Virus record (IMG/VR): IMGVR_UViG_3300045988_006728 | Source of the DNA: a virus | Taxonomy: Duplodnaviria; Heunggongvirae; Uroviricota; Caudoviricetes | Strand: one strand, 5' to 3' | DNA length: 64,000 nt | In this document: positions 7,493-64,000 of the stretch, one piece after another | Layout of the letters: the number at the start of each line of letters is the position of its first letter | How positions within the stretch are numbered: position 1 is the first letter of the stretch | Notes under the pieces: generated by a model | Seen by the model: the letters and a program-made list of their open reading frames with translations, nothing else | Told to the model about the DNA's origin: nothing | Databases searched by the model: none | Translations under genes and position numbers: made by a program

Positions 7493-8968
7493 GTGAGAAG
7501 AATGGCAGATATTACAGAAACACAAGAAAGCTTACCACCATTTAGGATGGGTGAAGTAGGTTCTTTGGGTCTGAAGGTTAAGAATGGAAGAATCTATGAA
7601 GAACCTCGTCAGGCACTAAGGTTCCCTGAAAGTATTAAAACTTTCCAATTAATGATGCGTGACCCCGCTGTAGCAGCATCTGTAAATATTATTAAGATGT
7701 TTGTCAGAAAAGTCAACTGGAGATTCGTACCTCCAAAGGGAAAAGAGCAAGACCCTAAAATGCTTGAAAGAGCAGACTTCTTTAATTCTTTAATGGATGA
7801 CATGGAGCATGATTGGGCAGATTTTATTAACTCTGTAATGTCATTCTGCACTTATGGGTTCTGTGTTAATGAAAAGGTTTATAAGAAGCGTCAGGGTAAG
7901 AAAGGAAAGTACCAGTCTAAATTTGATGATGGTCTAATTGGATGGGCTAAATTACCAATCAGAAACCAATCAACACTTGATAAGTGGTATTTTGACGAAG
8001 ACTTTAGAAAAGTTACTGGTGTTAGACAGAATCTGAGAAATGTTTCACATATTGCTGGAGCAATTAATCTTGGAGAAAGACCACTAACAAGAAAACTCCC
8101 ACGAGCTAAATTCATGCTGTTTAAGTATGACGATGAATATGGAAACCCAGAAGGTCGTTCACCATTACTTAATGCCTATGTGCCGTGGAAGTATAAAGTT
8201 CAGATTGAAGAGTACGAAGCAGTCGGTGTTTCAAGAGACTTGGTAGGTATGCCAAAAATTGGTTTACCACCAGATTATCTGGATGAAAATGCAGAACCTG
8301 AAAAGAAAGCTTTCGTACAATACTGCAAAACTGTTGTTAACGATATGATTGCTAATGATAGAGCAGGTTTAATCTGGCCTAGATATATCGACCCAGATAC
8401 TAAAGAGGATATTTTTGAGTTCTCATTAGTTTCTAGACAGGGTGCTAAAGCATACGATACAGGTTCTATTATTGACAGATATTCCAAGCAGATTATGATG
8501 GCATTTATGTCAGATGTTCTTGCTATGGGTCAGTCAAAATATGGTTCATTCTCTCTTGCAGATTCTAAGACAAGCTTACTAGCAATGTCAGTAGATATTC
8601 TGCTGAAGCAAATTAAGAACGTAATTAACCGTGATTTAGTTGCACAGACTTATGCTCTTAATATGTGGGACGATGAAGAACATGTGCAAATCACATATGA
8701 TGATATCGAAACCCCAGACCTTGAAGTAATTGGTTCTTATATCCAGAAGACTGTTGCAGTAGGTGCTTTGGAAGTTGACAAAGAGCTATCTAACAAGCTT
8801 AGAGAGCATATTGGTCTTCCTCCTGCTGATGAGTCTCAGCCAGTATCTGAAAAGCTTTCTCCAAATAGCCAAAGCCGTTCAGGAGATGGTTATAAGACCG
8901 CTGGAGAAGGTACTGCAAAGACACCTTCAGCGAAAGACCCAAGCACAGCAAATAAGGCAAATAAATAA
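7493..8968 (+). CDS. Portal protein
   Basis: 491-aa ORF immediately after the terminase, acidic/Gly-rich C-terminus; call rests on position and size. Confidence 0.6.
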   Translation: MRRMADITETQESLPPFRMGEVGSLGLKVKNGRIYEEPRQALRFPESIKTFQLMMRDPAVAASVNIIKMFVRKVNWRFVPPKGKEQDPKMLERADFFNSLMDDMEHDWADFINSVMSFCTYGFCVNEKVYKKRQGKKGKYQSKFDDGLIGWAKLPIRNQSTLDKWYFDEDFRKVTGVRQNLRNVSHIAGAINLGERPLTRKLPRAKFMLFKYDDEYGNPEGRSPLLNAYVPWKYKVQIEEYEAVGVSRDLVGMPKIGLPPDYLDENAEPEKKAFVQYCKTVVNDMIANDRAGLIWPRYIDPDTKEDIFEFSLVSRQGAKAYDTGSIIDRYSKQIMMAFMSDVLAMGQSKYGSFSLADSKTSLLAMSVDILLKQIKNVINRDLVAQTYALNMWDDEEHVQITYDDIETPDLEVIGSYIQKTVAVGALEVDKELSNKLREHIGLPPADESQPVSEKLSPNSQSRSGDGYKTAGEGTAKTPSAKDPSTANKANK

Positions 8969-25159: not shown

Positions 25160-26347
25160 ATGGCGGTAGGTGAAATTCAAATTAGTGCCTTGCCTCAAGC
25201 AGCCTTACCAATTGACCTTAGTGATATCTTCCATCTTAAGCAGGGTATTGAGGATAAGAGATGTACTCTTGAGCAATTACTTGCTCCACACTCAAGCCTA
25301 AGAAATAACCCTCATGGTGTTACTAAAACACAAATTGGTTTAGATAACGTTATCAATGCTCTTCAGTTAGTTGCTGCAAATAACTTATCAGACGTTACTA
25401 ATGTAGCTCAGGCAAGAGCAAATCTACAGATTATGTCTTCAGAAGAGGTTAATAATCTTGTTCAACAGCATATTCAGGACAAGAGCAACCCACATAATAC
25501 AACTAAGGTACAGGTAGGATTGAGTAATGTTCAGAACTGGACAACATCTAACCTTTATAACGAAGATGCAGATAAGTATGCTACAGCAAGAGCAGTAAAT
25601 AACTTGTACAAGGCTGTTCAGGCTTCCTATCCAGTAGGTACTATCCATCTTTCCATGAACTCTGCAAACCCTTCTACATATTTAATTTGTGGAGGAACTT
25701 GGGAGTTAGTTTCAAAAGGTAGAGCATTGGTTGGTTATGACTCTGATACAAGACCAACAGGCTCTGTATTTGGTGCTTCAACTGTCACTTTGTCAGTTAA
25801 TAACATGCCACAACACTCACACTCTGTGTCTCTTAGTGGTGGTGGTCACACCCATAATGCAACGGTGTCAATTTCAGCTTTTGATTATGGAACTAAGACT
25901 ACCAACTCTTTTGACTATGGAACAAAGACCACTAACACGACTGGTAACCACAACCATGTGGGCAGTGGGTCAACAAATGCGGCTGGTGCTCACAACCATA
26001 GATTGACCTATGAAGCAGGTGGTGGTTTATCGGAAAGACCTGCAATGGTTTGGTCTACAAGGAATGACCAATCATGGTACTCAGCAGATGCTGTCTGTGA
26101 AGTCGCTGGTTCACACACTCACTCTTTCAGTGTTACCACTAACACGACTGGTAACCACAGCCACACGGTTGGTATTGGTGCTCACAGCCACACGGTTGGT
26201 ATTGGTTCACATACACACAATGGTACTGTAACAGTTTCTTCTTCTGAGCATACGCATAGCGGGAACACTAACAGTATTGGTGGTGGACAAGCTTTTAACA
26301 TTGAGCAGCCATCCTTCGTACTGTATGTATGGCAGAGAACAGCTTAA
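25160..26347 (+). CDS. Tail fiber protein with His-X-His repeat tip domain
   Basis: 395 aa; repeated HTHS/HSHT motifs and in-frame tandem DNA repeats; C-terminal motif shared with the next gene. Confidence 0.65.
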   Translation: MAVGEIQISALPQAALPIDLSDIFHLKQGIEDKRCTLEQLLAPHSSLRNNPHGVTKTQIGLDNVINALQLVAANNLSDVTNVAQARANLQIMSSEEVNNLVQQHIQDKSNPHNTTKVQVGLSNVQNWTTSNLYNEDADKYATARAVNNLYKAVQASYPVGTIHLSMNSANPSTYLICGGTWELVSKGRALVGYDSDTRPTGSVFGASTVTLSVNNMPQHSHSVSLSGGGHTHNATVSISAFDYGTKTTNSFDYGTKTTNTTGNHNHVGSGSTNAAGAHNHRLTYEAGGGLSERPAMVWSTRNDQSWYSADAVCEVAGSHTHSFSVTTNTTGNHSHTVGIGAHSHTVGIGSHTHNGTVTVSSSEHTHSGNTNSIGGGQAFNIEQPSFVLYVWQRTA

Positions 26348-26393: not shown

Positions 26394-28781
26394 ATGGCAG
26401 ATTACAAGTTGAGTGAATTAAACTCAATCAATACAATCCGTTCAGATGACCTTCTTCATGTCAGAGTTAAAAAGAGACCTGAAATGCTGGGTGATGAAGA
26501 CCGTCGAATGACCTATCAAGACTTCTTAGCATCTTTTAAACTTGAAAGGTTTGTTCAGATTGCTGGTAGCACTATGACGGGTGACTTAGGAATTGTTAAG
26601 TTACTTTATGGTGGTAAGGTAGTATTTAACCCAACAGGCTCTTCTGAGATTACTATTGGGGATGTTTTAAAGACTTTTAAAATCAACGCAAACGGCCTTA
26701 GATTAACTATTGCAGATGCTTCAAGGTCGGCAACTGTTTATCATACTCTGAATAAGCCAAGCCCTAATGAGCTTGGGATGAGAACTAATGAAGAGAATGA
26801 TGCAAGATATGCAAGGTTGGCTGTAAATAACACCTTTAGAGGCACTCAAGCTATTCTCTCTGACAATGAAGCTCTTATTGCTAAGAATATTACACAAGGG
26901 ATGCCACTCTATATTCGTGGTCAAGATGCAGATGGTACTAACAGGTGGTATCTAGGTAATGATAACAAGGGTACAGACAATCTTGTTTTAAAAAACGTTA
27001 AATCTGGTGCATATGTAGCTATTTTAGCTAACCTAATCTCCGTGAACAAATCAATCCAAATCACTGGGCAAGTTCAACCTTCTGATTGGACTAACTTAGA
27101 TGCTAGGTATTTTACTCAGACAGCAGCTAATCAGAGGTTTGCACAGTTAGCTGGTAATAATACCTTTAGAGGCGTGAATACATTTAATCAAATCCTATCA
27201 ATTAAGACGAATAGTGCAGCCTTAAGGTTAAAAAACACTGTAGCTAATGGTGCACTGTACATTAAAGCCGAAGCTAATGATGGCTCTGGTAAGTGGTATG
27301 TAGGTAATGGTGATAATACACCTGCTGTATTAATCCACAACTATACGTATGGTTCTAATCTTAGACTCGACAATGGTTATGTTGAGGTTAATAAGCAACT
27401 TAAAGTCGTTGGTCAAGTTCAACCTTCTGATTGGACTAACATTGACTCTAGATATATTCCGGCAGGAACTTTGAGTAATCTTGCCAAGCTGAGTGATGCA
27501 AACACTTTCAGGTCTACACAGGTTATCAATCTGAATGGCTCATTGTTACAGCTAAAGAACACTACACAAGACAGAGAGCTTTACTTTGCTGGCCATAATG
27601 CTGATGGTGTTAGAAGGTGGTACATCGGTAATGGGGAACCATCCAACCCAACAAGATTTACTATCCGCAACGACAGAACTGCAACTACGCTTTATATGCA
27701 AGACGATTTCTTGTTGGATAAAACTGTCAGAATTACTGGTCAAGTTCAACCTTCAGATTTCTCTAACTTAGATGCTAGATATTTCTTAAAAACAAAACTG
27801 TTAAACCAATCTTTAATGACAAGGACAGCTAATAGACTGGATGACCCATCATCATTCAACAAAGATTGTTCAGGGTTTGTAAGAAACAACGCTATTGAGC
27901 AGGGTCTGAAAGATTTAGCCATCCATGTAGCACATTCTGCTGGTATTGCTCATGCCAGAGGTATTGCTTTTACATATGGGTCTAAAGGTCTTGATGTCTT
28001 CACATACGCTTATGGGTCAGATGGAGCATATGTTGGAGAGGCACAGTTGTATTCAACGGCATTTAAACCAACCCCTTCAGGTATTGGTGCATATACTAAA
28101 GCTGAAACTGACCAGAAGATTGCACAGGCAGTAAGTGACTCTACAGACCTTAATAAAATCTATCCAGTAGGTATTGTGACATGGTTTAACAGCAATGTTG
28201 ACCCTAATACAGCACTTCCTGGTCTAACTTGGACGTACCTGAACAATGGTGTTGGTAGAACTATCAGAATTGCAGCAGCAAACGGTTCAGATGTTGCTAC
28301 AACTGGTGGTTCAGATTCTGTAACGTTATCTGTTGGCAACTTACCATCACACACCCATAGTTTCTCTGCTACCACTTCATCTTTTGATTATGGTACGAAG
28401 AACACTAATAGCACTGGTGGTCATACTCACTCTGTAAGTGGCACAACAAGTGCTGCTGGTAAACACGCTCACCACTTAGGTCTGCTATTGGTTAATGGTG
28501 GTGATGCTCAGTACGGTTATACAACTGTTAGCAATAACAAGACGAGAACTCTTGACTGGCTTGACAGAACTGATAACAAGTTCCCTAACACTAACACAAC
28601 TGGTAACCATACACACACATGGTCTGGTACTACAAGTAACACTGGTGCTCACACCCACTCTGTAGGTATTGGTGCTCACACCCATACAGTTAGGGGTAAC
28701 ACTGGTGGTACAGGTTCTGGTTCAGCATTTAGTGTCACTAACCAGTTCTACAAGTTGATGGCTTGGGTGAGAACTGCTTAA
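26394..28781 (+). CDS. Long tail fiber protein with three internal repeats and His-X-His tip domain
   Basis: 795 aa; three roughly 100-aa repeats each containing NTFR...DG..RWY.GN...QVQPSDW(F)...LD(A/S)RY; C-terminal HTHS repeats. Confidence 0.7.
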
Positions 28782-28859: not shown

Positions 28860-29057
28860 ATGCCTACAATCCTAGCAATTCTTCTAAAAAATCTAGGTAG
28901 CTTCTTCTGGAAACTCATTTTATCCCTTCTAAGTGAATACATGATTGAGAAAGTGTTCTTTAGGCTTGCAAGATACCTTGCGAGTAAAACAGACACACCT
29001 ATTGATGATGAGTTCGTAGATAACTTAGAAAAAGCTTTTAAGGGGGAGAATAAATGA
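28860..29057 (+). CDS. Small hydrophobic protein (holin-like candidate)
   Basis: 65-aa ORF with a hydrophobic N-terminal segment at the end of the late operon. Confidence 0.35.
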   Translation: MPTILAILLKNLGSFFWKLILSLLSEYMIEKVFFRLARYLASKTDTPIDDEFVDNLEKAFKGENK

Positions 29058-29425
29058 AGTGGCTAGAGGAAGCTTTTAAAAATAATATTGGTGCAATTGT
29101 AGTTGGTATTTTTAGTGTTATTGGGATGTTTACCACGATGCAAGTTTCAAGTGGTAAACAAGAAGTGTCTGTCACAACAAAGTTACAGCAGCTAGATAAT
29201 TATTCCAAAAGTAACTATTCAGCTATTCGTGATTTACAGTCTGACATGAGACTGATTCAGCTAGGGATGGAGAACCAGAAAGTTCAGTTAGAGAATGTTA
29301 AGGGTGAAAACGCAAAACTTACCAAAACTCTTGATAAATTCTCTGACAGTGTGAATAATCTGGCTCAATCAGTATCAGCCCTCCAAGCTATTACTGAAAA
29401 GAACACAAAGAATACTGAAAAATAA
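29054..29425 (+). CDS. Membrane-anchored coiled-coil protein (spanin- or holin-like candidate)
   Basis: 123-aa ORF with one N-terminal TM helix (IGAIVVGIFSVIGMFTT) and a helical C-terminus. Confidence 0.35.
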   Translation: MKWLEEAFKNNIGAIVVGIFSVIGMFTTMQVSSGKQEVSVTTKLQQLDNYSKSNYSAIRDLQSDMRLIQLGMENQKVQLENVKGENAKLTKTLDKFSDSVNNLAQSVSALQAITEKNTKNTEK

Positions 29426-58557: not shown

Positions 58558-60924
58558 ATGCGCATGGTAAACGACCACGCAGAAGTGATTAAGAGTTCAA
58601 CTTCTTTAGAGACGTCTCAAGCACAGATTACAATGACACCTGAAATGTTCAGCCTTTTGAGTTCCGGTGTATACACATTTAAAGAAAGGGCAGTGATTCG
58701 TGAACTGTCATGTAACGCAGTAGATGCTCAAAAAGAAGCTGGAAAAGAGAACATCCCGTTCCATGTGCATTTACCTACTCGATTTGAGCCTTACTTTGAA
58801 GTCCGTGACTTTGGAACTGGTTTAACCCATGACAAAGTAATGAGTTTGTATCTGAACTATGGGGCTTCTACGAAGAATGACTCTAATGACTACATTGGTG
58901 CAATGGGTATCGGCTCAAAGTCACCGTTTGCGATTGCTCAGTCATTCACAGTGTCTAGCTATGTTGATGGTGTTGTTAATAAGTACTCTGTTTACCTTGA
59001 GAATGGTATTCCTCAAGTAACTAAGCTTACTACTAACCAAACAAATGAACCTAATGGTTTAGCTGTACGTGTGGCAGTTGCTGACCACCGTATTTCAAAG
59101 TTCTTTGAAGAGGCTGGTAATGTATACTCATACTTTGCTGTAAAACCAGAGAGTAATGTGGAGTATAATGATATATTAGCAGATATGGATGTGATTGCTC
59201 GTGAAGAAGGTGTCTATGATGCCATGACTCATAAGCATAGCTGGCGTTCAAGCAGCAATAGAACAGAGTTTAACGTGGTTATGGGTAATATTGCCTACCC
59301 AGTTAATATGGAGGTATTACTTGGTGATGATTTCTTCAAAGTATTACCAGAATTTTTCCGCAGGAGCATAGACCTTGTAAACATCTACATGCCTATTGGT
59401 TCAGTTGCTTTTGCAGCTTCTCGTGAAGCATTGCAGATGAATGACACGACAAAAAATGTTATCATCGAGGCTACTAAAAAGATAACTGAAGCAATTACAA
59501 AGGATGTTATCAAGAAAGTTAATAGTCAACCTACACTCATGGATGCTGCACAGGCTTATGCTGAGTTACGCTTGAACTCACGAGAGATGTTTAATGTTGT
59601 GTGTCCAAAGCTAGAGTGGGGAGGTGTTAAGCTTGATTCTCTGGAAGAAGAATTACTAAACATTCGTTGTGGAATTATCTACGCAGAGGACGGCTCAGTC
59701 ATCTATGAACGTGACGGCAAAGGTAATATTAAGGTTGACAGTAAAGGAAACAACATTCCTAAAGTGGACTACCTATACAATCCAGTTGCTTATGTTAAGT
59801 TCAACTCTTTAGAGAGTAAGATTCGTGCAACAGCACTTTCCTACACTCAAGAGGCGAGCATGTTCAATATCTTTGGTGCAATGCGTAAAAGCCAAATTGA
59901 ACAGTTTTTGTTCGTGATTAATGACCGTCGCAATAAAAACGGTACTGAAAAGACTGTAGGCCGCAATCAGATTCTGCGTGATGCATGTCGAGACTACGCC
60001 AGTGAGTCAAGTCTGTTTCACAGATATAATGGTATTGTGTTTGTATTCTCGACTGAAAAAGAGTTAGACGACCTAATCAATCTACACAAACTTGATAAAA
60101 GCTTGTTAAAGATTGTGAAGATGTCTGATAAGGAACATTACTATCAGCGTAAAGAAGCTGTAAGGGGTGTTGTAAAACTCTGGAAAGCTGTTCCAGCAGA
60201 AGGTGTAGCTTCCTATAAAGAGGTTTCAGAGGACTTCGATACAATTGAAGAACCTCAGCTTTACATTAAGGCAGTTGGTGATACAGTTGATGGCGAATGT
60301 TTTTGCTCATCTCCAGAAGATGTAGCCAAGTCAGTTGCTAATGTTACAGGGAAGACAGTCTATGTTTTCCGAAAAGCAAATTGGAAAAAGATACCAGAAG
60401 ACTGGATTGAAGTAGATGAGAAGCTCTTGAACGACAGCTTAACTGATGTTCACTGGATTAATCATAACAGGTATATGACACGTATCTATATGAATGGTGT
60501 TCTTGACCTTACAAGCAGTTGGATTATCGCCAGAAACTTTACATTCAATAACAGGAAGATTTCTCGTGGTTATTGCTATTCACGAGATACTAACAAAACT
60601 ATCTTCCTAGAAGGCAATGAAGATGCTGTAGAGGCAATGTTCGGTAAAATCCAATACGTTGCTGCACCATTTGCATACACTTATACTGTTAGTGTATTGA
60701 AAACTTTGAAAGACTGTCTTGACAATGATACAAAGCTTTACAAGAAAATTAAGAAAGCTGGTGACCGCATGGTCATTAAGGTGACAAACTACCTTTCAAA
60801 AAGAAAACAAGAAAACTTCTTGCTTTCTCATTTAGATTGGAATAAAGTGTCACCTATCGAAGTGAGTAAGTTCTTAGGCTTTGATGTGAAGTGTGTTCCA
60901 GAAGGGACTACAATTTTCGATTAA
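58558..60924 (+). CDS. rIIA: rIIA-like protein (GHKL ATPase fold)
   Basis: 788 aa; N-terminal block RELSCNAVDA, RDFGTGL, DYIGAMGIGSKSPF...SY closely follows the T4 rIIA N-terminal pattern as recalled. Confidence 0.8.
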   Translation: MRMVNDHAEVIKSSTSLETSQAQITMTPEMFSLLSSGVYTFKERAVIRELSCNAVDAQKEAGKENIPFHVHLPTRFEPYFEVRDFGTGLTHDKVMSLYLNYGASTKNDSNDYIGAMGIGSKSPFAIAQSFTVSSYVDGVVNKYSVYLENGIPQVTKLTTNQTNEPNGLAVRVAVADHRISKFFEEAGNVYSYFAVKPESNVEYNDILADMDVIAREEGVYDAMTHKHSWRSSSNRTEFNVVMGNIAYPVNMEVLLGDDFFKVLPEFFRRSIDLVNIYMPIGSVAFAASREALQMNDTTKNVIIEATKKITEAITKDVIKKVNSQPTLMDAAQAYAELRLNSREMFNVVCPKLEWGGVKLDSLEEELLNIRCGIIYAEDGSVIYERDGKGNIKVDSKGNNIPKVDYLYNPVAYVKFNSLESKIRATALSYTQEASMFNIFGAMRKSQIEQFLFVINDRRNKNGTEKTVGRNQILRDACRDYASESSLFHRYNGIVFVFSTEKELDDLINLHKLDKSLLKIVKMSDKEHYYQRKEAVRGVVKLWKAVPAEGVASYKEVSEDFDTIEEPQLYIKAVGDTVDGECFCSSPEDVAKSVANVTGKTVYVFRKANWKKIPEDWIEVDEKLLNDSLTDVHWINHNRYMTRIYMNGVLDLTSSWIIARNFTFNNRKISRGYCYSRDTNKTIFLEGNEDAVEAMFGKIQYVAAPFAYTYTVSVLKTLKDCLDNDTKLYKKIKKAGDRMVIKVTNYLSKRKQENFLLSHLDWNKVSPIEVSKFLGFDVKCVPEGTTIFD

Positions 60925-61003
60925 AGTGTTTGACAAGGGGCTTCAAAACCCCTTAGAATAGCATCACAAAATGATTTATTAACTAACAAGAGAGAGTAAT
61001 AAG

Positions 61004-62113
61004 ATGACTACCAAAACTAAAGCACAGATTGACGCAGAAATTTACAAACTGGTTAAAGAAGGTAAGTTGACTAAAACAGCTATTGCACAGAAATTTAATA
61101 CTTCAACCCGTTCAGTCGGTCGTGCTGTAGAGCGTCATGAAGCAACCTTAAAAGGGAATAAGAAGGCAACTTCTACACCAGCTACGAAGACTTTGAAGCA
61201 AGTTGCTAAGACCTTTAAAAAGAAAGCTGACAAACCAGTTGAAAAGGTTGTTAAAGATGCTGTACAGAAAGCTCCGGTAAATAAACTGCATGAAGCTATG
61301 CAGAAAGATGACAAGATTGAGTACATGATTACTGGTGACTCTGTAATTATGACTTATGGTTCAGAATCTGAAATTGTTGAGTCTACTCATCCGAACTATC
61401 AAGAGATTGTAGTTCATGTTGTGAAAGGTGAGTTCAAAAAAGCCTTTGAATTGATGAACATTCGTAAGTCTATCGAAAACTTCACTCAGGGCGCTATCAC
61501 AATCAAAGGTGACAAGTTATTCTACGGTGCTGTTGAGATGCGTTCTACTCTGGTTGACCGTATTCTTCACATGATGAAGACTGGAGATAAAGGTTTCGAA
61601 CGCCTTGTGATGTTCTTCGAAAAACTGATGGAAAACCCATCTAAAGACTCTGTAGAGCAACTTTGGGGCTTCGTATCTCACCTTGATGTTGAAATTGATG
61701 AAGAAGGCTACATCATTGGTTGGAAGAAAGTATCTACTCGTGAAGGCAAGCTGGTTGACTCCCACACCTACAGAGTACCTAATGATTTGGGTAACATTGT
61801 AGAAATGCCACGTTGGATGGTTGATAATAACCGTAACGTGACTTGCTCTCAAGGTCTTCATGTTGGTGCTTGGGATTATGTTCGTTGCTTCTCAGGTGAT
61901 ACAATTCTGAAGGTTCGTGTCCATCCACGAGACGTTGTATCCGTACCAACTGATTACAACGATATGAAGATGCGCTCGTCTCGTTATGAAGTTGCAGCAA
62001 TCGTTGATAATCAACGTAAAGTACTGAAAGCATGGGATGGCAAGACTGAAGCTTTGCATGTCATCGTTGGCACTGCTGGGGAACTTATCTCTCAGCGTAA
62101 ACGTGAAATCTAA
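61004..62113 (+). CDS. rIIB: rIIB-like protein
   Basis: 369 aa; blocks LFYGAVEMRSTLVDRIL, FEKLMENPSK, CSQGLHVGAW, KVRVHPRDVVSVPTDYNDMKMR match the T4 rIIB pattern as recalled; directly downstream of rIIA. Confidence 0.8.
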   Translation: MTTKTKAQIDAEIYKLVKEGKLTKTAIAQKFNTSTRSVGRAVERHEATLKGNKKATSTPATKTLKQVAKTFKKKADKPVEKVVKDAVQKAPVNKLHEAMQKDDKIEYMITGDSVIMTYGSESEIVESTHPNYQEIVVHVVKGEFKKAFELMNIRKSIENFTQGAITIKGDKLFYGAVEMRSTLVDRILHMMKTGDKGFERLVMFFEKLMENPSKDSVEQLWGFVSHLDVEIDEEGYIIGWKKVSTREGKLVDSHTYRVPNDLGNIVEMPRWMVDNNRNVTCSQGLHVGAWDYVRCFSGDTILKVRVHPRDVVSVPTDYNDMKMRSSRYEVAAIVDNQRKVLKAWDGKTEALHVIVGTAGELISQRKREI

Positions 62114-62122
62114 TAAGTAATT

Positions 62123-62148
62123 TCTTAAAAGGCTGCTTCGGCGGCCTT
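62123..62148 (+). terminator. Rho-independent terminator
   Basis: aggctgc-ttcg-gcggcct followed by tttttt. Confidence 0.55.
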
Positions 62149-62213
62149 TTTTATTTGTATTTTGTGCAGAGTGCTGTATAATTGTTTTCACGATAAACTA
62201 AACAGGAGAACCA

Positions 62214-62762
62214 ATGAAGAAATTGATTCTAGGTTTGTGCTTAATGTTTACAGCACACTTATCTTATGCAGTTGACTGCCCAGAGCTATCAATTAGCCAA
62301 AAAGTAAACATGTTAAAAGCTTACCAGTATGGTGAGAATAACATGGGTAAAGGTTGGGGTATCACTCTAGCTGCTATAGCCTTACAAGAGTCAGAGTTAG
62401 GTCTGAAGGTAGAGAATAAAAAGACCCATGACTATGGTATCTTCCAGAATCACTTGAAGACTGTTGTAAAGCGTAACAAAATTAGTCCTAATGTGGCTAA
62501 AAAGAAACTCTTAAAAGACTTTGACTATGCTGCGAAGGAAACTCACAAAGAGCTTGAGTTTTGGACAAAGGTGCATGGTCAGCCAAAGTCAAAGAAGACT
62601 TTACAAAAAGTTTTAGCATCATATAATGCTGGGTATTCGTACAGAATCCCTAAAGCTAAGAAATATTCTCAAGATGTCTATAACAACATGAAAGTTATTG
62701 CTCAATGTGAATTTGCAACAAACATTTCTAAGGTAAACCATGAAAAAATTAAAAAAGTCTGA
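62214..62762 (+). CDS. Secreted lytic transglycosylase (SLT-domain muramidase)
   Basis: 182 aa; signal peptide MKKLILGLCLMFTAHLSYA; catalytic E-S (ALQESELG), YGIFQ and SYNAGYS motifs. Confidence 0.5.
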   Translation: MKKLILGLCLMFTAHLSYAVDCPELSISQKVNMLKAYQYGENNMGKGWGITLAAIALQESELGLKVENKKTHDYGIFQNHLKTVVKRNKISPNVAKKKLLKDFDYAAKETHKELEFWTKVHGQPKSKKTLQKVLASYNAGYSYRIPKAKKYSQDVYNNMKVIAQCEFATNISKVNHEKIKKV

Positions 62763-63435
62763 TGAAGTACTGTGTCATGCTTACGACTTACATCCTCATG
62801 AGTTAGGTCTTGATTCCTGTGTATGGACTCCAGAACAGTGTAGGGATTTTGAAGACACTGCAAGAGAAGTTGTATGTTCACTCGAAGAGTTCCACACATC
62901 AGAACCAATTGTGAATGTTGTAGATAAAGAGACTGGACAAACTATAGGTGTAAGTCGTGATAGCTTAGTCATAGTCAATAAAGACCTTGTAGAAAAAGGG
63001 AATCTCATCTTAGCAGATATTGATGGTGTTCTTACAAATTTTAATCACGAAGATTGTTCAACGGAATTGACTGACGGTTCATTCTCGCAGTACACTAATC
63101 TTCTTGACTCTGTAAGAGCAAAACCAACGTATGTTTTCAATATCATTGATGCAATTGCTAATCATGCTGCTGTTGGACTCTTGACAGCGAGAGGTGAATC
63201 TCAGAGAATACCTACTGAGATGTTTTTAAGGCATAACACAGAGCATGACTACATGCTTTTTATGCGTGGTTTTGGGACTAACTCTATAAGCGCAGAAAGT
63301 TTGAAAGTGAGGATGATTCAGTCTTGCATTCTGCCTTACTTTAATATAGTATGTTTTATAGAAGACACAGAGAAGAATGTGCAGAAGGTGAACAGAATCC
63401 TTCCACACATTAAAACCATGTTAGTTAAACATTGA
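62740..63435 (+). CDS. HAD-family hydrolase (putative nucleotidase/phosphatase)
   Basis: 231 aa; HAD motif I LADIDGVL. Confidence 0.4.
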   Translation: MKKLKKSDEVLCHAYDLHPHELGLDSCVWTPEQCRDFEDTAREVVCSLEEFHTSEPIVNVVDKETGQTIGVSRDSLVIVNKDLVEKGNLILADIDGVLTNFNHEDCSTELTDGSFSQYTNLLDSVRAKPTYVFNIIDAIANHAAVGLLTARGESQRIPTEMFLRHNTEHDYMLFMRGFGTNSISAESLKVRMIQSCILPYFNIVCFIEDTEKNVQKVNRILPHIKTMLVKH

Positions 63436-63445
63436 GAGAAAACTT

Positions 63446-63910
63446 ATGAACAATATCATTACGGTAGCACTGGACGATACGGTAAACAAATCTGCAATAG
63501 TTCGTAAAATGATTCAAGGTAACTTTGAAGGTAAAATTTTTCGTGCTGTTAATGTAAAAGCTGATGGCAGCATTCGTGAATATCGTGCATTATTGAATGT
63601 TAAAAAACACGTAAAAGGTGCTGGTTCAACGACTGCACACAAAGAAAACCTGATGACTATCTATGATATGGGTAAGGCTTCAGAGTTAGGTGCTGAAGGT
63701 ATCGTTAAAGAAGGTGCTCCGTATCGCTCTTTCAATCTGGAAACTACTCTTATGCTTTCCTTTACAAGTGGTTCTAAAACAATCACTTATCTCTTTACTG
63801 ATGCTGCAACGGTATCTGCTATTAAGGATAGCACTGTCAAAGCTGGCGTAGTTGCTGCTGCAAAAGCTTCTTCGATGGCTGCGAATATCCTTGCTAAAGT
63901 CCTCGGTTAA
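63446..63910 (+). CDS. Hypothetical protein
   Basis: 154-aa ORF followed by a terminator (ggctcc-ttcg-ggagcc, T-run). Confidence 0.4.
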   Translation: MNNIITVALDDTVNKSAIVRKMIQGNFEGKIFRAVNVKADGSIREYRALLNVKKHVKGAGSTTAHKENLMTIYDMGKASELGAEGIVKEGAPYRSFNLETTLMLSFTSGSKTITYLFTDAATVSAIKDSTVKAGVVAAAKASSMAANILAKVLG

Positions 63911-64000
63911 GGTTAAGATACAGGCTCCTTCGGGAGCCTTTTTCATTTTAGGAGATTGTTAAATGACATTTAAAGAGTTCTGTCAAGCTACTTTCATAAT

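What the first reader, a model, noticed from the sequence alone, without database searches (positions are those of the whole stretch)
62214..62762. SLT-type muramidase with a cleavable signal peptide, located away from the late lysis region
The protein has a signal peptide followed by E-S, YGIFQ and YNAG motifs typical of lytic transglycosylases. It is encoded next to rIIB rather than with the holin-like genes at 28860-29425. It may be a secreted endolysin or a periplasmic enzyme used during infection.
Basis: partly seen in the sequence, partly recalled or inferred. Interest (0 to 1): 0.35.

Follow-up and report, generated by a model that had tools for sequence, protein, structure and literature searches.

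The report
Phage T4 Vs.1-like periplasmic murein glycosidase
This gene of a Felix O1-like phage encodes an exported, SLT/goose-lysozyme-type cell-wall-cutting enzyme that belongs to the long-annotated but never characterised phage T4 Vs.1 family. It is a second wall enzyme, not the phage's main lysis enzyme, which sits elsewhere in the genome.

Summary
ORF 62214-62762 (+, 182 aa) is real, has a Shine-Dalgarno site, and is under purifying selection. It carries a classical Sec signal peptide (predicted cut A19|V20) and the motifs E59-S60, Y74-G-I-F-Q78 and Y137-N-A-G140.

The window is a Felixounavirus, 99.7% identical to phage LinBro in this region. The protein is 100% identical to LinBro's copy and 99.5% identical to Felix O1 ORF3. 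It falls in PHROG 600 together with T4 Vs.1.

The query alone misses Pfam SLT by 2 bits, but 14 of 15 relatives hit it. The AlphaFold model (core pLDDT above 95) matches GH23 folds: g-type lysozymes, EtgA and Slt-type transglycosylases. E59 is invariant in 170 relatives.

Felixounaviruses carry a separate soluble GH24 endolysin (Felix O1 gp35), which lies just outside this window.

"Away from the lysis genes" is only half true. The i-spanin gene starts at 63963, 1.2 kb downstream, and lysis genes are scattered in this genus.

Most likely this is an early or middle, holin-independent periplasmic murein glycosidase with an auxiliary role. That role is untested. The family and its SLT resemblance are already in the literature and in annotations.

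The parts
62127..62150 (+). Intrinsic terminator-like hairpin plus T-run after rIIB
   Evidence: The scan gives 10 pairs, 5 of them GC, and loop TTCG. The same element is annotated as a terminator in phage ASO1A.
62154..62182 (+). Weak sigma-70-like promoter candidate: -35 TTTGTA, 17-nt spacer, perfect -10 TATAAT at 62177-62182
   Evidence: Read from the sequence. The homologous site is annotated in ASO1A as a promoter with 3 mismatches. The consensus scan does not list it because the -35 matches only 3 of 6. Function is not shown; read-through from rIIB is equally possible.
62204..62208 (+). Shine-Dalgarno AGGAG, 5 nt before the ATG
   Evidence: Sequence.
62214..62762 (+). CDS of the Vs.1-family GH23 murein glycosidase precursor: 182 aa, 20.8 kDa, stop codon included
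62214..62270 (+). Predicted Sec signal peptide, residues 1-19 (MKKLILGLCLMFTAHLSYA), with predicted SPase I cut A19|V20
   Evidence: The n/h/c architecture and the -3/-1 rule are read from the sequence. In the family, 151 of 167 members have an N-terminal hydrophobic 10-mer, and the median uncharged stretch is 12 aa. pLDDT is below 50 for residues 1-19 of the model. Export and cleavage are not shown experimentally.
62271..62759 (+). Predicted mature enzyme, residues 20-182 (18.7 kDa, pI 9.7); the GH23 domain spans about residues 21-167
   Evidence: One search gives mass and pI. One search gives pLDDT 84-98 for residues 21-160. Searches give GH23 fold matches.
62388..62393 (+). E59-S60, the predicted catalytic Glu in the family-1 'E-S' motif
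   Evidence: E is invariant in 170 of 170 relatives and S is present in 164 of 170. It aligns with EtgA E42 and goose lysozyme E73 in the profile alignments.
62430..62447 (+). D73 plus the Y74-G-I-F-Q78 motif. D73 aligns with EtgA D60, which is the equivalent of hen lysozyme D52
   Evidence: Alignment to 8urn. The role of EtgA D60 is described in PMC10880428. Asp is present in only 57 of 170 relatives (Ser 94, Ala 15; T4 Vs.1 has Ala).
62622..62633 (+). Y137-N138-A139-G140 motif
   Evidence: Y and G are invariant, and N is present in 160 of 170 relatives. The motif is equivalent to EtgA Y116-N117-x-G119 (PMC10880428).
62664..62666 (+). Y151, an invariant active-site tyrosine
   Evidence: Present in 170 of 170 relatives. 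It aligns with the Tyr of EtgA 'RRQYAMKIY' in the profile alignment; PMC10880428 lists Y133 as a conserved EtgA active-site residue, and that these are the same residue is assumed, not checked.
62740..63435 (+). Downstream polynucleotide kinase/phosphatase-like gene (PseT-like), overlapping the glycosidase gene by 23 nt
   Evidence: phrog_3970, E 1e-134. The overlap follows from the coordinates.
63446..63910 (+). Third gene of the apparent unit, function unknown (phrog_2267)
63922..63939 (+). Terminator-like hairpin closing the three-gene unit
   Evidence: It is annotated as a terminator in ASO1A.
63963..64000 (+). First 38 nt of the i-spanin (Rz-like) gene, which runs off the window
   Evidence: Identical to the start of LinBro CDS0092. 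That protein matches phrog_1152, Rz-like spanin, E 1.1e-41. It is annotated as i-spanin in ekra.

Best explanation
**What it is.** The gene encodes a small GH23 (SLT / goose-lysozyme superfamily) peptidoglycan glycan-strand-cleaving enzyme. It is the Felixounavirus orthologue of phage T4 Vs.1.

**How it most likely works (all steps inferred).**
- It is made as a precursor with a classical Sec signal peptide.
- It is exported across the inner membrane and cut by signal peptidase I after Ala19.
- It is released as a soluble, basic, 18.7-kDa periplasmic enzyme. Glu59, in the E-S motif, acts as the general acid on the MurNAc-GlcNAc bond.
- It therefore reaches the murein without a holin and before lysis. 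It belongs to the rIIB-proximal early/middle transcription unit together with a PseT-like polynucleotide kinase.

**Role.** It is not the lysis endolysin, which is a separate soluble GH24 lysozyme. Its most likely role is auxiliary. It nicks or loosens the sacculus from the periplasmic side during infection, so the wall fails faster and more completely once the holin, GH24 endolysin and spanins act. This would parallel the secreted second lysin Tgl of staphylococcal kayviruses.

**Confidence by sub-claim.**
- Exported GH23 enzyme of the Vs.1 family: about 0.9.
- Not the main endolysin: about 0.9.
- Auxiliary wall-weakening role: about 0.4.
For: **Family**
- PHROG 600 gives E 1e-57 for the query and 2.1e-68 for T4 Vs.1.
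- BLASTP to T4 Vs.1 gives 32% identity, E 3e-16.
- The Felix O1 ORF3 GenBank note already names the T4 vs-regB ORF.

**Enzyme class**
- 14 of 15 relatives hit Pfam SLT, best E 8.2e-12.
- The family profile hits EtgA (8urn, E 7e-4) and goose lysozyme (153l, E 7e-3) in the PDB.
- The AF2 model has mean pLDDT 84.8 with a core above 95.
- Foldseek gives probability 1.00 to g-type lysozymes and a GH23 chitinase and 0.96-0.99 to EtgA and Cj0843. It also matches viral 'SLT domain' proteins with TM 0.66-0.76.
- E59, Y137, G140 and Y151 are invariant in 170 relatives.

**Export**
- The signal-peptide architecture is conserved across the family.
- Cys near position 22 and Cys near position 165 tend to co-occur (43 both, 86 neither, 41 one only). 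Eighty-four of 170 proteins have exactly two Cys after residue 20. This fits a periplasmic disulfide.

**Timing and location**
- Felix O1 ORF3 transcript peaks at 25 min, and ORF3 is absent from the virion proteome (PMC3185647).
- T4 vs.1 is classed as early RNA / middle protein, so the protein is detected (PMC9697503 supplement).
- In Kuttervirus, Vibrio and Colwellia phages the homologue sits among early and DNA-metabolism genes, not in lysis cassettes.

**Separate endolysin:**; PMC3185647, PMC9156722, PMC4319497.

**Functional precedent:** Kayvirus Tgl (PMC7150955).
Against: - No experiment on any member of the family was found.
- The query alone is below the Pfam SLT gathering score.
- Structural matches to solved GH23 enzymes are modest: TM 0.45-0.53, and no Foldseek E<=1e-3 against the PDB.
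- Export, cleavage and activity are all inferred.
- An active, unregulated periplasmic murein glycosidase made before lysis might be expected to cause premature lysis. Some restraint must therefore be assumed: low dose, repair by the living cell, or a partner.
- The Felix O1 RT-PCR puts ORF3 in the same 'middle' class as the lysin gp35. Timing therefore does not clearly separate the two genes in this genus.
- No conserved neighbour across phage families points to a role.
Confidence: 0.6

Rival explanations
1. It is the phage's real, Sec-secreted endolysin, in the style of Lys44 of Oenococcus phage fOg44. It would accumulate in the periplasm and be unleashed when the holin collapses the membrane potential.
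For: It has a signal peptide plus a murein-glycosidase domain. Some records label it 'putative lysin'. Spanin genes lie 1.2 kb downstream.
Against: - Every close relative carries a soluble GH24 endolysin (Pfam Phage_lysozyme, E 6.7e-41; phrog_7 endolysin, E 2.1e-57).
- That protein is the recognised Felix O1 lysin gp35 (PMC3185647), and a Felixounavirus lysin of this type was shown to be muralytic (PMC9156722).
- T4 also has both gpe and Vs.1.
- In other phage families the homologue lies among early genes.
Confidence: 0.05
2. It is a 'specialised' hole-puncher like EtgA, IpgF or VirB1. It would locally open the murein so that a phage-encoded trans-envelope structure can assemble. One candidate is the i-spanin/o-spanin bridges encoded just downstream.
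For: - The best solved-structure sequence match is EtgA.
- It has the same build: about 150-190 aa, a Sec signal and a single GH23 domain.
- It has the same E / D / Q / Y-N-x-G / Y residue pattern, including Asp73, equivalent to EtgA Asp60 (PMC10880428).
- The spanin genes are 1.2 kb downstream on the same strand.
Against: - The match to EtgA is weak (E 7e-4; TM 0.45).
- There is no tblastn match in 72,556 plasmids at E<=0.01, so it has no BLAST-detectable homologue among plasmid-borne genes, including any conjugation transglycosylases there.
- In T4, vs.1 (61.7-62.3 kb) is far from the spanin genes pseT.2/pseT.3 (135 kb).
- Phages without such an enzyme, such as lambda, assemble spanins (established knowledge).
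- No docking partner is identifiable.
Confidence: 0.1
3. It is a periplasmic enzyme with a role unrelated to lysis. Candidates are altering the murein to hinder superinfecting phages, resisting lysis-from-without, or releasing anhydromuropeptides for recycling or signalling during infection.
For: - Expression is early or middle (PMC9697503 supplement).
- It lies next to rIIA/rIIB, which are membrane-associated exclusion and lysis-inhibition-related genes. That synteny persists in a relative with only 38% identity.
- It is conserved very widely in large virulent myoviruses that also carry their own endolysins.
Against: This is purely circumstantial. The rII adjacency is absent in T4, Kuttervirus and Vibrio phages. 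No phenotype has been reported.
Confidence: 0.15
4. It is a SAR (signal-anchor-release) endolysin or a membrane- or lipid-anchored enzyme, not a soluble periplasmic one.
For: It has an N-terminal hydrophobic segment directly ahead of the catalytic domain. Cys9 is conserved within the segment in Felixounavirus.
Against: - The uncharged core is only 11 residues and rich in Leu/Ile/Phe, with 3 of 11 Gly/Ala/Thr. SAR domains are longer and rich in Gly/Ala/Ser (general knowledge, not checked here).
- A clean S-Y-A|V SPase I site follows, and relatives keep A-x-A-type sites.
- Leu at -1 of Cys9 violates the lipobox, and distant relatives lack the Cys.
Confidence: 0.03
5. It is a catalytically dead murein-binding protein, or a decayed remnant.
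For: The Pfam score is sub-threshold. No function is known.
Against: The catalytic Glu and all motif residues are invariant in 170 relatives. pN/pS is 0.02-0.15. The T4 homologue is detected as protein.
Confidence: 0.03

Closest known systems
Phage T4 Vs.1 (NP_049725; 'hypothetical 20.7 kDa protein in vs-regB intergenic region'), PHROG 600
   Same: - Same PHROG, with full-length matches.
- 32% identity, E 3e-16.
- Same length (181 vs 182 aa), an N-terminal signal peptide, and E-S / G-x-F-Q-N / S-Y-N-x-G motifs.
- Encoded among pre-late genes, in a phage that has its own endolysin.
- The marginal SLT similarity is already published (PMC1524935).
   Different: - T4 Vs.1 has Ala where this protein has Asp73.
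- T4 Vs.1 lacks the C22/C165 pair.
- Its neighbours are regB and vs, not rIIB and a polynucleotide kinase.
- Neither protein has been characterised.
EtgA (EPEC T3SS peptidoglycan glycosidase; PDB 4XP8, 8URN) and its relatives IpgF and IagB
   Same: - Best sequence-profile hit in the PDB.
- A small Sec-exported single-domain GH23 enzyme.
- Shares E, D (EtgA D60), Q, Y-N-x-G and Y active-site residues.
- Described as a 'hybrid' of lysozyme and lytic transglycosylase whose product type is unresolved (PMC10880428). The same ambiguity applies here.
   Different: - The relationship is distant (E 7e-4, about 17% identity, TM 0.45).
- EtgA is targeted and activated by the T3SS rod protein EscI. No such partner or machine is encoded nearby here.
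Kayvirus Tgl (staphylococcal phage secreted lytic-transglycosylase-like second lysin)
   Same: It is phage-encoded, carries an A-x-A signal peptide and is exported by the host. It is transcribed from a host-type early promoter and co-exists with a canonical holin-dependent endolysin. It has been proposed as an auxiliary endolysin (PMC7150955).
   Different: - Its catalytic domain belongs to a different family (pfam06737, IsaA/SceD-like).
- Its host is Gram-positive.
- It lies a few genes from lysK.
- Its activity was shown experimentally, which is not the case here.
Goose-type lysozymes and the GH23 chitinase of Ralstonia (PDB 3GXK, 153L, 3W6F)
   Same: These are the top structural matches, with probability 1.00. 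They have the same fold and the same position of the catalytic Glu.
   Different: They are hydrolases with additional acidic residues. Identity is only 14-17% and TM about 0.5. They are eukaryotic or bacterial secreted enzymes with unrelated biology.
Felix O1 gp35 / LysO1-type GH24 endolysin (the canonical endolysin of this genus)
   Same: It has the same substrate, the murein glycan strand, and is encoded by the same phage genomes.
   Different: - It has an unrelated sequence family (Pfam Phage_lysozyme).
- It has no signal peptide; a relative's version is described as a soluble lysozyme (PMC4319497).
- It lies about 14 kb away and outside the window.

Membership tests
T4 Vs.1 family (PHROG 600) | Significant, near full-length match to the family profile | tested here: met
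   E 1e-57, residues 1-170 against profile positions 1-176 of 178.
T4 Vs.1 family (PHROG 600) | T4 Vs.1 itself belongs to the same profile family and aligns pairwise | tested here: met
   T4 Vs.1 matches phrog_600 with E 2.1e-68. BLASTP gives 32% identity, E 3e-16.
T4 Vs.1 family (PHROG 600) | N-terminal Sec-type signal peptide ahead of a single catalytic domain, total length about 165-195 aa | tested here: met
   Heuristic hydrophobicity analysis: 151 of 167 family members qualify, as do the query and T4. No dedicated signal-peptide predictor was available.
GH23 / Pfam SLT (PF01464), family-1 lytic transglycosylases | Score at or above Pfam's gathering threshold | tested here: inconclusive
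   The query scores 19.2 bits against a 21.3 cutoff, E 9e-4. Fourteen of 15 relatives match at E<=0.01, best 8.2e-12.
GH23 / Pfam SLT (PF01464), family-1 lytic transglycosylases | Catalytic Glu in an E-S motif, plus G-x-x-Q and (A/S)-Y-N-x-G motifs and a downstream Tyr | tested here: met
   E59-S60, G75-I-F-Q78, S136-Y-N-A-G140 and Y151 are present. E, Y137, G140 and Y151 are invariant in 170 sequences.
GH23 / Pfam SLT (PF01464), family-1 lytic transglycosylases | Lysozyme-like GH23 fold | tested here: met
   The AF2 core has pLDDT above 95. All top 11 PDB matches are GH23 enzymes with probability 0.99-1.00, but TM is only 0.45-0.53. Viral SLT proteins match with TM up to 0.76.
GH23 / Pfam SLT (PF01464), family-1 lytic transglycosylases | Non-hydrolytic cleavage giving 1,6-anhydroMurNAc, the feature that separates a lytic transglycosylase from a muramidase | not testable with these tools
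   Asp73 sits at the EtgA D60 / hen lysozyme D52 position, which hints at possible hydrolysis. That position is Ser or Ala in most of the family (PMC10880428). Muropeptide mass spectrometry is needed.
Canonical holin-dependent endolysin | It is the phage's principal murein-degrading lysis enzyme | tested here: not met
   A separate GH24 endolysin is present in the near-identical genome LinBro and in Felix O1 (PMC3185647, PMC9156722).
Canonical holin-dependent endolysin | Cytoplasmic accumulation, with no export signal | tested here: not met
   A predicted cleavable signal peptide is present.
SAR endolysins | An uncleaved, weakly hydrophobic, Gly/Ala/Ser-rich N-terminal transmembrane domain long enough to span the membrane | tested here: not met
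   The core is 11 residues and rich in Leu/Ile/Phe, and is followed by an S-Y-A|V cleavage motif.
Specialised transglycosylases of secretion and conjugation systems (EtgA, IpgF, VirB1, P19) | Encoded within a trans-envelope machine locus and recruited by a component of that machine | tested here: not met
   The neighbours are rIIA, rIIB, a polynucleotide kinase and an unknown ORF. There is no plasmid homologue. Physical recruitment is not testable here.
Virion-associated peptidoglycan hydrolases (entry enzymes) | Present in the virion, usually as a domain of a tail or internal protein | tested here: not met
   It is a stand-alone protein with a signal peptide. The Felix O1 virion proteome lists 17 proteins and does not include ORF3 (PMC3185647). 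This row rests on the literature, not on a test of this phage.

The most novel reading that the evidence does not exclude
The Vs.1 family is found in at least 1,900 sequenced phages, including T4, Felix O1-like and Vi01-like myoviruses, and a chimallin-encoding Campylobacter jumbo phage. The novel reading is that it is a dedicated pre-lysis, holin-independent periplasmic murein-remodelling factor with a role distinct from lysis. Candidate roles are blocking superinfection, resisting lysis-from-without, or gating assembly of envelope-spanning phage complexes. In the Felixounavirus branch, Asp73 would make the enzyme a true hydrolase, while the T4 branch (Ala) would be a lytic transglycosylase.
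Probability: 0.2. Interest if true: 0.55.

Novelty: already known. Interest (0 to 1): 0.25.

Why it matters
**For this window.** The finding corrects a tempting mis-assignment. This gene is not the endolysin. It should be labelled a Vs.1-family exported GH23 murein glycosidase, not 'putative lysin', 'hypothetical protein' or, as in some Kuttervirus records, 'RegB'.

**More generally.** The family is one of the most widespread uncharacterised conserved genes of large virulent phages of Gram-negative bacteria. It is small, easy to express and easy to knock out.

**If the role were shown.** Knowing why phages that already have an endolysin export a second wall-cutting enzyme before lysis would add a step to the textbook holin-endolysin-spanin lysis model. 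It could also supply a naturally exportable, basic muralytic enzyme for enzybiotic work. As it stands, the result is an ordinary, already-annotated gene with an open functional question.

Tried and rejected
- **Single-sequence phmmer against the PDB:** no hit even at E 10. A family profile was needed.
- **tblastn against 72,556 plasmids:** no match. Close kinship with conjugation-system transglycosylases was therefore dropped.
- **Conserved neighbour across phage families:** I compared T4, Kuttervirus, Vibrio SUMAE and Colwellia 9A and found none. Only the Ounavirinae-like lineage keeps the order rIIB, this gene, polynucleotide kinase.
- **A second conserved catalytic acid, to decide hydrolase versus transglycosylase:** position 73 is Asp in only 57 of 170 sequences. 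The question is undecided.
- **Disulfide C22-C165:** only co-occurrence statistics were possible.
- **Literature on Vs.1 function:** four searches found only the 2006 comparative-genomics note. The T4 genome review (PMC150520) is not held. One search returned mostly irrelevant dengue and clinical papers.
- **Lipoprotein reading of Cys9:** rejected. The -1 residue is Leu, and the Cys is absent in distant relatives.
- **NCBIfam:** no meaningful hit for the query.
- fetched the wrong T4 region. One search was the right one.
Full report
**1. What the window is**

The 3 kb around the finding is 99.7% identical to Escherichia phage LinBro. It is 97-98% identical to many Felixounavirus genomes, including VpaE1, UAB_Phi87, ekra and FSL SP-107. 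Megablast of the whole window against LinBro shows that the window covers LinBro from about 78.2 kb to its end, and then 1 to 61.6 kb.

**2. Checking the observation**

- The ORF listing returns an ORF at exactly 62214..62762 on the + strand, 182 aa with an ATG start. AGGAG lies 5 nt upstream of the ATG.
- The N-terminus is MKK-LILGLCLMFTA-HLSYA|VD. It has two basic residues, an 11-residue uncharged hydrophobic core, and Ser at -3 and Ala at -1. That is the textbook architecture of a signal peptidase I substrate.
- The N-terminus is not a lipoprotein signal, because the residue before Cys9 is Leu. It is also too short and too hydrophobic for a SAR domain.
- The gene is under purifying selection: pN/pS is 0.02-0.15 against Felix O1, ekra and ASO1A.
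- The protein is 100% identical to the LinBro protein and to the FSL SP-010 protein, and 99.5% identical to Felix O1 ORF3.

**3. What it is**

*Family.*
- PHROGs places the protein in phrog_600 ('unknown function') with E 1e-57 over its full length.
- T4 Vs.1, translated from NC_000866, falls in the same PHROG with E 2.1e-68. It aligns with the query at 32% identity, E 3e-16.
- The GenBank note on Felix O1 ORF3 already reads 'hypothetical 20.7 KD protein in vs-regB intergenic region'.
- A 2006 comparison of T4-like genomes reported that vs.1 orthologues match the SLT domain marginally (E 0.012-0.74) and corroborated earlier PSI-BLAST matches to lysozyme (PMC1524935).

*Enzyme class.*
- The query alone is just below Pfam's SLT threshold: 19.2 vs 21.3 bits. 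Fourteen of 15 diverse relatives match SLT, best E 8.2e-12.
- A profile of those relatives hits the T3SS glycosidase EtgA (8urn, E 7e-4) and goose lysozyme (E 7e-3) in the PDB.
- The AlphaFold2 model has mean pLDDT 84.8. It is 84 or higher, mostly above 95, for residues 21-160 and below 50 for residues 1-19 and 168-182.
- Its best PDB matches are all GH23 enzymes: g-type lysozymes, the Ralstonia GH23 chitinase, EtgA, Cj0843, MltF, Slt and phiKZ gp144. The top hits have probability 1.00, but TM is only about 0.5.
- Against predicted viral structures it matches 'transglycosylase SLT domain' proteins of Aeromonas, Pseudoalteromonas and T4-like phages, with TM 0.66-0.76.

*Conservation.*
- An exhaustive profile search finds 1265 clusters (50% identity) at E<=1e-3. 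tblastn finds the gene in 1899 phage records.
- In an alignment of 170 family members, E59, Y137, G140 and Y151 are invariant. S60 is present in 164 of 170.
- The protein is therefore a bona fide, presumably active, GH23 murein glycosidase of the Vs.1 family.

**4. Lytic transglycosylase or muramidase?**

- In the profile alignment, Asp73 of the query lines up with EtgA Asp60.
- EtgA Asp60 is the equivalent of hen lysozyme Asp52. It is important for EtgA activity, and it is the position at which muramidases differ from lytic transglycosylases.
- The EtgA authors themselves could not decide which reaction EtgA performs (PMC10880428).
- Across the Vs.1 family this position is Asp in only 57 of 170 sequences, Ser in 94 and Ala in 15. 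T4 Vs.1 has Ala, as Slt70 does.
- The chemistry is therefore open. It may even differ between the Felixounavirus branch and the T4 branch.

**5. Location of the protein**

- An N-terminal basic plus hydrophobic segment is present in 151 of 167 Met-starting members. The median uncharged stretch is 12 residues, which is signal-peptide length and not anchor length.
- Relatives keep A-x-A-type sites such as AVA|S, ATA|S, AIA|D and TFA|E.
- Cys near position 22 and Cys near position 165 tend to occur together: 43 sequences have both, 86 have neither, and 41 have only one. Half of the proteins have exactly two Cys in the mature part. This is compatible with a periplasmic disulfide, but the sequences are not phylogenetically independent.
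- I infer a soluble periplasmic enzyme of 163 aa, 18.7 kDa and pI 9.7. Export and cleavage have not been demonstrated for any member.

**6. Genomic context and timing**

- Upstream lie rIIA (58558-60924) and rIIB (61004-62113), followed by a strong terminator-like hairpin at 62127-62150.
- A perfect TATAAT at 62177-62182, paired with a poor -35, is annotated as a promoter in ASO1A.
- The gene overlaps the next gene, a PseT-like polynucleotide kinase (62740-63435, phrog_3970), by 23 nt.
- An unknown ORF (63446-63910) and a terminator (63922-63939) close the apparent unit.
- Immediately after that, at 63963, the Rz-like i-spanin gene starts and runs off the window. Next to it, two records place different ORFs: ekra an ORF labelled o-spanin, LinBro a hypothetical protein.
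- A relative with only 38% identity keeps the order rIIA, rIIB, (small ORF), SLT, PNKP..., Macro.
- Outside this lineage the neighbours differ. They are regB and vs in T4, the gp46/47-like recombination nuclease and NrdA.1 in Kuttervirus, and dexA in Vibrio phage SUMAE. These are always pre-late or DNA-metabolism regions, never a lysis cassette.
- Published RT-PCR for Felix O1 places ORF3 among genes maximally expressed at 25 min ('middle'). The virion proteome does not contain it (PMC3185647).
- Time-resolved omics of T4 classifies vs.1 as early RNA / middle protein, so the protein is really made (PMC9697503 supplement).

**7. Is it the endolysin?**

No.
- LinBro encodes a 154-aa protein at 75587-76051 that matches Pfam Phage_lysozyme (E 6.7e-41) and the endolysin phrog_7 (E 2.1e-57).
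- This is the Felix O1 lysin gp35 (PMC3185647). An endolysin_autolysin-type (cd00737) lysin of phages C600M2 and CL1 was purified and shown to be a muramidase (PMC9156722). UAB_Phi87 has the Felix O1-type lysin too (PMC4837284).
- The window does not include that segment and has no GH24 homologue; the best tblastn E is 0.77.
- The Moogle genome note states that in Felix O1-like phages the endolysin ('soluble lysozyme'), i-spanin, o-spanin and putative holin are scattered and do not form a cassette (PMC4319497).
The nearest recognised lysis genes, the spanins, are in fact 1.2 kb away.
- The ORFs at 28860-29425 match only PHROGs of unknown function.

**8. Most likely mechanism**

*Shown:*
- family membership;
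- the GH23 fold;
- an invariant catalytic Glu;
- conserved signal-peptide architecture;
- a separate canonical endolysin in the relatives;
- pre-late expression of homologues.

*Inferred:*
- Sec export and SPase I cleavage;
- a soluble periplasmic enzyme that cuts glycan strands independently of the holin, while the cell is still alive.

*Proposed role.*
- I propose an auxiliary wall-loosening role that potentiates the final holin, GH24 and spanin lysis.
- The best experimental precedent is Kayvirus Tgl (PMC7150955). It is a signal-peptide-bearing lytic-transglycosylase-like protein, transcribed from a host-type early promoter.
- Tgl lyses E. coli when expressed with its signal peptide. In S. 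aureus it needs membrane depolarisation to cause lysis. It was interpreted as a second endolysin.

*Rivals, all of low to moderate probability:*
- an EtgA-like local 'hole-puncher' for a phage envelope structure;
- a non-lysis role in superinfection, lysis-from-without or muropeptide turnover;
- the true secreted endolysin;
- a SAR or anchored form;
- a dead enzyme.

**9. Novelty and score**

- The protein sequence is already in GenBank many times.
- Its kinship to T4 Vs.1 was annotated in the Felix O1 record, and the SLT resemblance of Vs.1 is published.
- Several records already call it 'putative lysin' or 'transglycosylase SLT domain-containing protein'.
- What remains unknown is the biological role of the family. 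I found no study of it.
- The finding is therefore real but ordinary: already known as a kind, with a modestly interesting open question. Interest is 0.25.

Noticed in passing
window 62740-64000 (continues beyond the window; LinBro 60341-62074): A PseT-like polynucleotide kinase gene lies one ORF away from the i-spanin/o-spanin genes. In T4, pseT is likewise separated by one small ORF (pseT.1) from the spanin genes pseT.2 and pseT.3, although the gene order along the transcript is reversed. This kinase-spanin linkage seems conserved between two distantly related myovirus groups.
   Followed up: partly
window 62600-62627 (+): A near-consensus sigma-70-like site, TTTACA-16-TATAAT (11 of 12), lies inside the glycosidase gene, 113 nt upstream of the start of the kinase gene. 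It could be an internal promoter or a chance match in AT-rich DNA.
   Followed up: no
The 123-aa protein has an N-terminal hydrophobic segment followed by a coiled-coil-like region. The Felix O1 paper lists gp79, among others, as a possible holin, but none is established; whether gp79 corresponds to either of these ORFs was not checked.
   Followed up: partly
L010 (GCA_053226485.1 contig ACBEZJ010000004.1, 214,766 bp), gene at 8001-8582: The homologue P0020 is labelled 'Campylobacter coli'. It sits on a 215-kb contig that also encodes a PhiKZ-type chimallin (nuclear-shell protein) 1.4 kb away. The contig therefore looks like a jumbo phage genome deposited within a bacterial assembly.
   Followed up: no
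L007 3390-4004 (Salmonella phage maane) and hit H33 (phage Maynard): Kuttervirus homologues of this glycosidase are annotated as 'RegB' or 'RegB site-specific RNA endonuclease'. This looks like an annotation-transfer error, perhaps from the adjacent T4 genes regB and vs.1.
   Followed up: partly
L006 7130-7915 (Felix O1 ORF13); L012 9757-10497; T4 L005 3923-4390: A T4 Tk.4-like Macro/A1pp 'phosphatase' gene lies about 3 kb downstream of the Vs.1-like gene in Felix O1-like genomes. In T4, tk.4 is two genes from vs.1. This may be a remnant of shared synteny. It lies outside the window.
   Followed up: no
L001 9253-9474 (ekra 'o-spanin') vs L004 16877-17074 (LinBro hypothetical): The ORF annotated as o-spanin in ekra starts MSGCSTNK, with no visible signal sequence before the Cys. 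LinBro annotates a different ORF there, which matches only unknown-function PHROGs. The o-spanin call in this genus looks unsettled.
   Followed up: no
window about 26812-28065 and 25929-26278: Megablast against LinBro breaks within the 795-aa tail-fibre gene (26394-28781), while the flanks are 93-95% identical. This suggests the receptor-binding region has been exchanged relative to the closest relative.
   Followed up: no
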